Notes under the pieces: model-generated | Databases searched by the model: none | What the model was told of the DNA's origin: nothing | What the model saw: the letters and a program-made list of their open reading frames with translations, nothing else | Program-made: the position numbers and the translations under genes | NCBI GenBank assembly: GCA_964016885.1 | Contig: CAXHJY010000293.1 | Location: 1 to 64,000, forward strand | Origin: Eledone cirrhosa | Taxonomy: Eukaryota | Direction: 5' to 3' | Length of the DNA: 64,000 nt | In this document: positions 25,895-29,849 of the stretch, piece after piece | Position numbering within the stretch: the stretch's first letter is position 1 | Layout of the letters: every line of letters begins with the position of its first letter

Positions 25895-26174
25895 CAATAT
25901 AAACAGTTTTATAGATAAATATATTCGACATACCGTAATAAACATCAACTTCATTTGAAGAGGTTTACTCTAGCAGTGAAAATACAGAGAGAAAGAAAGA
26001 GAGAAAGAAAAGAGGGAAAAAAAAAGAAAGACAAAACGAAGAAGAGGAAGAAAAAGAAGAAAAAGAAAAAGAAGAAATGCATGGGACAAAATAGAGATGA
26101 AAAAAATTTTTTTCTCTCTCTATATTTCTCCATATCTCCCTATAAACCTCCCTTACACGAACACTTGAGCCAAA

Positions 26175-26205
<31 letters not shown>

Positions 26206-26571
26206 ATGAATGCATCATTGATACACCTACTCAAAATGACCTCCCACTACCCAATTTTCTATATATATATATGTATCTATCTCCACTTCCTCTCTCTATA
26301 CATATATATATATCTTTCTGTCTCCTTACATGAAGCTCCTCGCCCTATCCATCCTTCCATCTCTCCATCTTGTCCCATGCATTTCTTCTTTTTCTTTTTC
26401 CTCTTTTTCCTCCTCTTCCTCGCTTTGTCCCTCTTTCCTTCTTTTTTTTCCCTCCTCTCTCTCTCTCCTTCCCTCTCTCTGCATTCCCACTGCTAGAGTA
26501 AACCTCTTCAAGTGAAGCTGATGTCCACTACGGTACGTCGAATATACTCATCTATAAAACTGCTCACATTG

Positions 26572-26637
26572 TACCTCGTCTGATGAAGGCACAACACATT
26601 GTTAATATGACATCCCGGAAATATATATAATGAAACA
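26572..26637 (+). ncRNA. Hammerhead copy with T>C substitutions in stems I/II, core intact
   Basis: CTGATGA at 26580, GAAA at 26618, ATATATAT stem III; helices partly disrupted. Confidence 0.6.
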
Positions 26638-26675
26638 AACACGGTTTCATAAATATAGTTTTCCATTTATTTAAT

Positions 26676-29849
<3,174 letters not shown>

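What the first reader, a model, noticed from the sequence alone, without database searches (positions are those of the whole stretch)
26107..26680. Strictly directional T>C hypermutated copy: fossil A-to-I (ADAR-like) editing fixed in DNA
Seen: aligning 26481-26654 to 30089-30262 without gaps gives, by manual count, 23 T>C, 1 A>G, 1 C>G and no C>T. The inverted sister arm (25788-26105) is unmutated. Only 1 of the 23 sites is followed by C, meaning the A on the opposite strand almost never has a 5' G. Known: ADARs hyper-edit long dsRNA and disfavour a 5' G neighbour. Inference: the changes are A>G on the strand antisense to the ribozyme, so either an edited antisense or hairpin RNA was reverse transcribed, or the first-strand cDNA in an RNA:DNA hybrid was deaminated. 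The latter would be an unusual anti-retroelement mechanism. The two arms must derive from different templates.
Basis: partly seen in the sequence, partly recalled or inferred. Interest (0 to 1): 0.85.

Follow-up and report, generated by a model that had tools for sequence, protein, structure and literature searches.

The report
RNA-editing scars in Penelope retrotransposon DNA
One arm of a Penelope-like jumping gene carries 57 one-directional T-to-C changes, likely left when the RNA-editing enzyme ADAR rewrote a double-stranded RNA that was then copied back into the genome; other copies in this genome carry the same scar on both arms of a hairpin, so RNA editing likely becomes heritable DNA change here.

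Summary
Observation confirmed and larger than reported. Window 26107-26680 is one arm of a Hydra-type Penelope-like element (PLE) with 57 T>C at 273 T columns and 7 other substitutions; the edited A almost never follows G (3/68 vs 54/203). T is the family state (3,054 exact copies of a T-allele 30-mer). Its partner arm has 0 A>G in 78 A. Pattern searches found 8 hairpin copies with T>C on one arm and A>G on the other, unpaired tails spared (3 tested). One hairpin rides in the 3' UTR of a second PLE (37 copies), where 13 of 13 polymorphic paired columns are A/G on the host's mRNA strand; another sits in a LINE 3' UTR. A second one-arm case (L207) has the window's layout. Best reading: ADAR edited dsRNA, and the PLE reverse transcriptase, after starting on unedited sense RNA, switched onto the edited antisense RNA; fold-back then made the matching outer arm. 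The cDNA-deamination idea is not needed (about 10%). Read support is indirect. This scan has noted ADAR-type L1 and LTR copies in other genomes; I found no paper on PLE hairpins.

The parts
25788..26105 (-). Arm A: unedited pLTR arm (family positions about 250-574 when arm B's first base is 1), ends at the no-tail boundary in a TA tract; shares a private 5' truncation (poly-T plus a small deletion) with arm C
   Evidence: truncation seen only at this locus among the loci then held; A/C: 314 of 317 columns pair perfectly
26100..26113 (.). A7/T7 head-to-head junction; the A run matches the three A that precede arm B's start in the family (short microhomology, inferred template-switch point)
   Evidence: alignment and junction print
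26107..26680 (+). Arm B: 574-bp 3' UTR/pLTR arm with 57 T>C (first 26131, last 26648) = A>G on the minus strand; last 32 bases unedited (0 of 17 T)
26580..26633 (+). Type I hammerhead-like motif (CTGATGA core, stem II, GAAA, palindromic stem III) inside arm B; core intact, flanking stem I disrupted in the predicted fold; no Rfam match
   Evidence: motif; fold; no Rfam hammerhead hit
26681..27480 (.). TA-rich microsatellite array following arm B (3 C, 0 G in 800 bases)
27481..27895 (.). Element X: inverted pair of ends of another repeat family, unedited (its first 167 bases 100% identical to copies elsewhere); likely a later insertion or not part of the edited RNA
27896..29848 (.). Second TA-rich array
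29849..29949 (-). Arm D: 100-bp unedited piece with the 88-bp tail
29954..30378 (+).

Best explanation
Arm B is likely a DNA copy of an antisense Penelope-like RNA that ADAR had hyper-edited while it was double-stranded, the reverse transcriptase likely placing C opposite each inosine. Shown: the element is a C-terminal-endonuclease PLE whose copies usually insert as inverted pairs in TA tracts; arm B's changes are one-directional, derived and G-depleted 5' of the edited A; other copies have A>G on one strand through both arms of a hairpin and, in the 3 tested, not in the unpaired tail. Inferred, step by step: (1) read-through transcripts of inverted copies form long dsRNA that ADAR edits in germline or early cells; (2) any retroelement RT that copies such an RNA fixes the edits, either as a whole hairpin (T>C arm plus A>G arm) or as a passenger in a PLE or LINE 3' UTR; (3) at this locus the PLE RT likely primed in the left TA tract on an unedited sense RNA (arm A), slipped on a U run adding A's, jumped by a few bases of microhomology onto the edited antisense RNA (arm B), and later folded back on its own cDNA to make arm C, which would explain why A and C share a private truncation. 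Step 3 is less certain (about 0.65) than the ADAR-RNA origin of the edits.
For: 57 T>C of 273 T vs 7 others; 5'-G 3/68 vs 54/203. Same depletion in 8 other edited arms pooled: 11/144 vs 279/1012, p=1.7e-8. Eight hairpins in which nearly all arm-to-arm mismatches are A-U pairs turned G-U on one strand, on both arms: L102 30+26, L107 24+23, L113 14+17, L203 23+23 (8 other mismatches), L204 6+4, L206 13+11, L208 21+18, L218 10+8. Unpaired tails spared: 0/36 vs 30/82, 1/14 vs 25/62, 0/31 vs 13/43 (3 hairpins tested). Edits lie on the mRNA strand of the carrier: L102 sits about 330 bp after an intact APE+RT LINE ORF; the 37-copy hairpin sits in the 3' UTR of a second PLE (46% identical RT part), where 13 of 13 polymorphic columns in 222 paired bases are A/G against 1 of 5 in 506 bases outside (32 of 37 copies passed the alignment filter). 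Arm B shares more edited sites with L102 and L107 than chance (12 vs 7.5 expected, 10 vs 6.2). L207 repeats the window's layout: outer arms 99.8% identical over 2,160 bp with one truncation point, a central arm with 34 T>C of 87 T (0/6 at 5'-G) next to an unedited partner, T>C continuing into flanking repeats (16/85 in a self-complementary one, 6/99 in a non-palindromic one, p=0.011) and a partial fold-back copy with the same edits. Literature: upstream-G depletion in all metazoans tested and heavy editing of Penelope RNA in lizard (PMC5625713, passages); a PLE protein extends both target strands and starts at two internal sites that define the tail (PMC11167929, parts 1-2 of 4).
Against: No donor locus or A>G partner of arm B was found. 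The perfect hairpin X and the TA arrays next to arm B are unedited, so they must be later additions or outside the edited RNA. Arm C has 3 private substitutions absent from arm A, so the copy relation is not exact. Arm B's overlap with the L113 sites is at chance (5 vs 5.1). Base-level read support is missing: nothing was laid on 26528-26575 and one run of the same sample held 0.00 of the words. The locus is on a small unplaced contig (119 kb). No RNA run of this organism was laid and the ADAR gene itself was not searched for. The non-palindromic L207 flank had only 1 comparator copy. One of the 13 A/G columns is a G>A change relative to the family.
Confidence: 0.8

Rival explanations
1. ADAR (or a related deaminase) edited the first-strand cDNA of arm B while it was still in an RNA:DNA hybrid; arm B would then be an ordinary target-primed cDNA started at the no-tail site in its own TA flank, which would explain an unedited partner without a template switch.
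For: Arm B ends exactly at a normal start boundary and its partner is unedited. Full-length human ADAR2 edits the DNA strand of a 90-bp matched hybrid in vitro, and ADAR1 deaminase domain keeps its usual neighbour preferences on DNA (PMC5389660, passages). A second clear one-arm case (L207) and a probable third (L205) exist.
Against: In vitro rates on hybrids were about 20-fold lower than on dsRNA (kobs 0.02 vs at least 0.4 per min on a 24-bp substrate; PMC5389660, passages). 8 of 10 clear T>C arms found have an A>G partner. In L207 the edits are patchy and follow self-complementary flank sequence, and the strand made right after the junction is the sense strand carrying C in either direction of synthesis (inference). 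A search for long T>C arms at an upstream site found only the window (1 match).
Confidence: 0.1
2. Arm B was first fixed as one arm of a fully edited hairpin elsewhere or here, and later DNA-level rearrangement (inversion between two neighbouring palindromes, gene conversion from arm C, or mis-assembly) swapped its edited partner for an unedited arm. The edits are still ADAR-on-RNA; only the joining route differs.
For: The window's pairs are non-canonical (A|B both lack the tail, D|C both have it), and inverting 26107-29950 would give two canonical pairs. Copies of these elements recombine often (6 of 10 marker pairs outside the hairpin show four gametes). No laid record spans the A|B junction.
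Against: After such an inversion arm B's partner (C) is still unedited, and the shared private truncation of A and C is unexplained. L207 shows the same layout independently, on a chromosome-scale contig.
Confidence: 0.2
3. The reverse transcriptase itself misincorporated dG opposite rU under a skewed dNTP pool (U-to-C hypermutagenesis, recalled from in vitro HIV RT work; not read here).
For: Would give T>C on one cDNA only and leave the partner clean.
Against: Does not predict 5'-G depletion matching ADAR, nor A>G on the opposite arm of the same hairpin with the tail spared, nor site sharing with such hairpins.
Confidence: 0.03
4. Sequencing or assembly artefact at a palindrome.
For: Small unplaced contig; no read laid on the edited core; one run of the same sample lacked the words.
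Against: Two runs hold 27 of 56 words where 14% of words have 0-1 differences (p=1e-9; p=0.013 if all words with up to 2 differences were shared with other copies), and Logan drops k-mers seen once (PMC12424806, section 3.1.2). The same signature recurs on chromosome-scale contigs and is inherited by 37 dispersed copies.
Confidence: 0.03
5. C is ancestral and the family arose by C>T change, or arm B belongs to a C-rich subfamily.
For: A 37-copy group shares some C alleles with arm B.
Against: That group has T>C on one arm only and A>G on the other, so it is itself edited. Older, more diverged lineages also carry T at most of the shared sites. Arm B has no close relative.
Confidence: 0.01

Closest known systems
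ADAR hyper-editing of repeat-derived dsRNA in metazoans (Porath et al. 2017, PMC5625713; passages read)
   Same: Clustered A>G on one strand, strong depletion of upstream G, confinement to dsRNA; Penelope RNA is named as massively edited in lizard and octopus as one of the two strongest editors.
   Different: There the edits are in RNA only; here they are fixed in assembled genomic copies, on antisense as well as sense arms.
[quoted passage not shown]
   Same: Edited RNA copied into DNA by reverse transcriptase; concentrated in an inverted-repeat region.
   Different: Here an endogenous non-viral PLE in the germline; both hairpin arms and antisense-only arms; edits accumulate over further rounds of retrotransposition.
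APOBEC 'DNA editing' footprints in endogenous retroelements (Zaranek et al. 2010, PMC2873906; passages read)
   Same: Directional, motif-biased mutation clusters fixed in single retroelement copies.
   Different: G>A/C>T from cytidine deamination of cDNA; here A>G/T>C, dependent on pairing and most likely made on RNA.
Hydra clade of C-terminal EN+ Penelope-like elements (Craig et al. 2021, PMC8557442; section on Hydra and passages read)
   Same: Single ORF, TERT-like RT, RW[K/R], DKT, CxCX5C linker, no CCHH between the GIY-YIG motifs, CxxC and CxH near the end, hammerhead motif in the pLTR, TA-tract insertion, inverted 5' copies and an optional tail.
   Different: Unit about 4 kb (paper: generally under 3 kb), tail 88 bp (paper: 30-40 bp for PLEs); no tree was built; editing footprints are not mentioned in the parts read.
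[quoted passage not shown] 2017, PMC5389660; passages read)
   Same: Would give T>C on the element's sense strand with ADAR neighbour preference.
   Different: In vitro only, slower than on dsRNA, and does not explain two-arm edited hairpins.

Membership tests
Penelope-like element, Hydra clade | Single ORF with a telomerase-related RT | tested here: met
   738-aa ORF in a full-length copy (L085), YRDD at 353; predicted model pLDDT 91 has TERT as top PDB match, E=6e-10. Pfam and PDB sequence searches gave no hit.
Penelope-like element, Hydra clade | C-terminal GIY-YIG endonuclease lacking the CCHH motif | tested here: inconclusive
   YVG at 631 and invariant Y618, Y631, G633, R642, H646, E701, N713 in 97 homologues, one Cys only between the two motifs; but no profile or fold match to a GIY-YIG domain was obtained and the domain was not folded alone.
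Penelope-like element, Hydra clade | RWK, DKT, CxCX5C linker, CxxC and CxH flanking the conserved E and N | tested here: met
   RWR at 38 (R for K), DKT at 119, CxCX5C at 597, CxxC at 695; CxH at 722-724 read.
Penelope-like element, Hydra clade | pLTRs, inverted 5'-truncated copies, optional tail, (TA)n targets | tested here: met
   Tandem and inverted arms with an 88-bp tail on one end in the long loci mapped; TA flanks.
Penelope-like element, Hydra clade | Hammerhead ribozyme in the pLTR | tested here: inconclusive
   Core motif present; no Rfam hammerhead hit; monomer fold not better than shuffles; cleavage cannot be tested here.
Penelope-like element, Hydra clade | Phylogenetic placement with Hydra families | not tested
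   No reference Hydra sequences were in hand.
ADAR A-to-I hyper-editing | Clustered A>G on a single strand | tested here: met
   57 of 64 substitutions in arm B; one-strand G-U pattern in 8 hairpins.
ADAR A-to-I hyper-editing | Depletion of G 5' of the edited A | tested here: met
   3/68 vs 54/203; 11/144 vs 279/1012 in 8 other arms.
ADAR A-to-I hyper-editing | Confinement to double-stranded RNA | tested here: met
   Tail vs paired part in 3 hairpins; 13/222 vs 1/506 A/G columns in the host element. For arm B itself the pairing partner is unknown.
ADAR A-to-I hyper-editing | 3' neighbour preference (A in invertebrates, G in amniotes; PMC5625713) | tested here: inconclusive
   Pooled rates nearly flat: A 0.28, G 0.28, C 0.24, U 0.23.
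ADAR A-to-I hyper-editing | Matching inosine clusters in RNA of this organism | not testable with these tools
   The one run search listed no RNA run of this organism.
ADAR A-to-I hyper-editing | ADAR gene in this genome | not tested
APOBEC/AID DNA editing of retroelements | G>A or C>T clusters | tested here: not met
   1 C>T and 0 G>A in arm B.

The most novel reading that the evidence does not exclude
In this (probably octopod) genome ADAR plus retroelement reverse transcriptases form a standing RNA-to-DNA mutational ratchet: inverted PLE insertions are hyper-edited as RNA, the edits are written into the germline whenever the RNA is copied (whole hairpin, 3' UTR passenger, or antisense template captured by a template switch), and they pile up over successive transposition rounds; the inosine marks also act as a strand label showing that PLE inverted arms arise by template switching and fold-back of the nascent cDNA. 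A bolder sub-case, that one-arm T>C copies record ADAR acting on cDNA in the RNA:DNA hybrid, has about 0.1 probability and would merit 0.9.
Probability: 0.6. Interest if true: 0.75.

Novelty: new variant of a known kind. Interest (0 to 1): 0.62.

Why it matters
It is sequence-level evidence that A-to-I editing reaches germline retroelement RNA and becomes inherited DNA change, repeatedly, in an invertebrate lineage known for extreme editing. It gives a natural tracer for an open question, how Penelope-like elements build their inverted arms and tails, because edits label which strand was RNA and which arm was copied from which. It also warns RNA-editing studies in such genomes that genomic copies already carrying ADAR-type A>G clusters exist and can mimic editing if reads are mis-mapped.

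Tried and rejected
Self-BLAST of the whole window timed out. Rfam found no hammerhead at gathering or E-value thresholds. Pfam and PDB sequence searches of the ORF gave nothing. Searching the right flank for an allelic copy of the locus hit only a dispersed 466-bp repeat. Searching element X found no donor locus with the same structure. My first reading of the 37 hairpins as an independently mobile MITE-like subfamily was rejected when their flanks proved shared: they are passengers in another PLE. A four-gamete test for recurrent editing was uninformative because markers outside the hairpin also fail it (23 of 66 vs 6 of 10 pairs); only the weaker claim stands, that 20 edit patterns occur among 32 copies and several are shared. 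The 17 matches carry only 0-6 A>G per arm and were not counted as hyper-edited. L202 (9 T>C of 70, many other differences) was left uncounted and L205 (12 of 95) is called probable only. Of the 84 matches, 33 were of the host-family type, 3 already known, 7 new multi-C (all fetched) and 41 single-C (35 fetched; 1 of them, L218, proved a two-arm edited hairpin). A both-strand TpA DNA mutator like the algal case in note e1-9889545 was considered and rejected: changes here lie on one strand and are not limited to TpA. No difference in editing rate between the part of arm B that could pair with arm A and the rest (38/163 vs 19/110, p=0.29).

Full report
OBSERVATION. The reported count is exact: 23 T>C, 1 A>G, 1 C>G between 26481-26654 and 30089-30262. 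The changes run through the whole arm 26107-26680 (arm B): against the commonest letter per column of 80 de-duplicated family alignments there are 57 T>C at 273 T columns and 7 other substitutions. T is the family state: a T-allele 30-mer occurs 3,054 times exactly, and no other copy among the 40 candidates scored resembles arm B above 89%. Many of the G-context sites are in TC microsatellite, but the depletion repeats in 8 other arms pooled (11/144 vs 279/1012).

ARE THE BASES REAL? Indirectly supported. Two runs of one sample hold 0.48 of 56 sampled words of arm B, while only 77 of 544 31-mers have 0-1 differences from the family (p=1e-9, or 0.013 under a generous assumption); Logan discards k-mers seen once (PMC12424806, section 3.1.2 read). 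Against: a third run of that sample held 0.00, and laying four runs placed nothing on 26528-26575 or across the junction (the tool skips repeats and filters records). These runs may be the source of the assembly. The stronger argument against artefact is recurrence of the same signature on chromosome-scale contigs and its inheritance by dispersed copies.

WHAT THE ELEMENT IS. Full-length copies carry a 738-aa ORF between pLTRs. Its predicted structure matches telomerase RT best, and it has the motifs that Craig et al. give for Hydra-clade PLEs: RW[K/R], DKT, CxCX5C, no CCHH, CxxC and CxH (PMC8557442 section on Hydra read). Copies sit in TA tracts, usually as head-to-head arms, one ending in an 88-bp tail and one at a fixed no-tail boundary, in line with the two internal RT start sites and extension of both target strands shown for an anole PLE (PMC11167929, parts 1-2 of 4 read). 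The host is probably an octopod cephalopod: inference from a 3.0-Gb assembly, extreme TA content and Argonauta proteins being the only named homologues.

ANATOMY OF THE LOCUS. Left to right: arm A (25788-26105, minus, no tail, unedited), A7/T7 junction, arm B (plus, no tail, edited), TA array, element X (an unedited inverted pair of another family), TA array, arm D (100 bp with tail, minus, unedited), T23, arm C (plus, with tail, unedited). A and C pair at 314 of 317 columns and share a truncation and small deletion seen at no other locus then held; C has 3 private substitutions.

OTHER EDITED COPIES. Degenerate patterns requiring one derived base found more cases. (a) Eight hairpins are edited on both arms, i.e. 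A>G along one strand: L102, L107, L113-type, L203, L204, L206, L208, L218, with 10-56 G-U-type mismatches each and 1-2 other mismatches or none, except L203 with 8. In the three tested, the unpaired tail is spared (0/36 vs 30/82; 1/14 vs 25/62; 0/31 vs 13/43). (b) Two solo arms carry sense A>G: 136/457 and 42/543. (c) One hairpin occurs 37 times because it lies in the 3' UTR of a second autonomous PLE; the edits are on that host's coding strand, and among 32 of the 37 copies all 13 polymorphic columns in the paired part are A/G against 1 of 5 in the neighbouring UTR (one of the 13 is G>A). Twenty edit patterns occur among the 32 copies, several shared, so edits were added after the founder and passed on; recurrence at single sites cannot be shown because these copies also recombine. 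(d) L102 lies in the 3' end of an intact LINE, edits again on the coding strand. (e) L207 has the window's layout: two unedited outer arms 99.8% identical over 2,160 bp with one truncation point, a central arm with 34 T>C of 87 T, T>C continuing in flanking repeats mainly where they are self-complementary, and a partial fold-back copy with the same edits. These searches are lower bounds: each needed one particular site edited and the other positions otherwise intact.

MECHANISM. Shown: one-strand A>G, ADAR-type context, restriction to paired sequence, location on the RNA strand of known carriers. Inferred: ADAR edits dsRNA formed by read-through of inverted copies; an RT reads inosine as G and fixes it. 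For the window, arm A cannot come from the same edited molecule (0 of 78 A; 1e-8). The most economical route, modelled on L207, is that the PLE RT primed on an unedited sense RNA (arm A), slipped on a U run, switched through a few A/U pairs onto an edited antisense RNA (arm B), and later folded back to make arm C. The origin of X, the arrays and D is not resolved: X is unedited and identical to young copies over 167 bases, so it may be a later insertion. Confidence 0.8 for ADAR-on-RNA, about 0.65 for the template-switch route.

RIVALS. cDNA deamination in the RNA:DNA hybrid (0.1) is biochemically possible but about 20-fold slower in vitro (PMC5389660, passages) and unnecessary for 8 of 10 clear T>C arms. 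A later DNA rearrangement of an RNA-edited arm (0.2) is compatible with the ADAR origin. RT wobble misincorporation (recalled; 0.03), artefact (0.03) and ancestral C (0.01) are disfavoured as set out in the rival entries.

COMPARISON AND NOVELTY. It works like ADAR hyper-editing of repeat dsRNA (PMC5625713, passages) recorded in DNA as in avian retroviral U3 hypermutants (PMC12925331, passages), and parallels APOBEC footprints in retroelements (PMC2873906, passages). Seven literature searches (listings and abstract starts seen) showed no paper on ADAR edits fixed in genomic PLE copies or in retroposed hairpins; the 2026 retrozyme preprint (10.64898/2026.07.22.740005, passages) has no mention of ADAR. 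The library lacks most subscription journals and no supplements were read. This scan has noted ADAR-type A>G L1 and LTR copies in other genomes (unchecked notes). New here are the antisense and two-arm forms, the passenger hairpin that keeps gaining edits, and the use of edits as a tracer of PLE arm formation. Verdict: real, new variant of a known kind, interest 0.62.

Noticed in passing
window 6-2830: Tandem array of about 310-bp units, each with the same hammerhead-like motif (10 motif hits): looks like a non-LTR retrozyme array.
   Followed up: no
window 31110-31700: Member of a 466-bp repeat found dispersed and in tandem at 95-98% identity, with a hammerhead-like motif on the minus strand near 31433: a second retrozyme-like family.
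   Followed up: partly
window 12569, 13304, 13827, 20954, 24710, 32110, 62539: Further hammerhead-like motifs of other families, some as inverted pairs; the window is dense in PLE-type ends.
   Followed up: no
window 27481-27895, 4990-5330, 8509-8850: Element X family: three copies in the window, the one at 27481 an inverted pair with reiterated short units at its centre; at least 133 candidates genome-wide.
   Followed up: partly
L185:6465-8945 (minus) and L180:2337-5400: A second autonomous Hydra-type PLE family (827-aa ORF, 46% identical over the RT part) that carries the edited hairpin in its 3' UTR in at least 37 copies; editing has changed the hammerhead GAAA on its RNA strand.
   Followed up: yes
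L188:531-4166 and about 4490-4960: Intact 1,212-aa LINE ORF (APE, RT, C-terminal zinc fingers) whose 3' end holds the two-arm edited hairpin L102 before a short tandem tail.
   Followed up: partly
L207:5130-6620: T>C clusters in unrelated flanking repeats, so other repeat families are also hit when carried in an edited read-through RNA.
   Followed up: partly
L091, L099, L139, L086 junctions: Short reiterated copies of element sequence at head-to-head junctions, suggestive of repeated slippage by the telomerase-like RT.
   Followed up: no
L147: A four-arm nested palindrome whose outer arms share 6 A>G: a fold-back of an already inverted unit.
   Followed up: no
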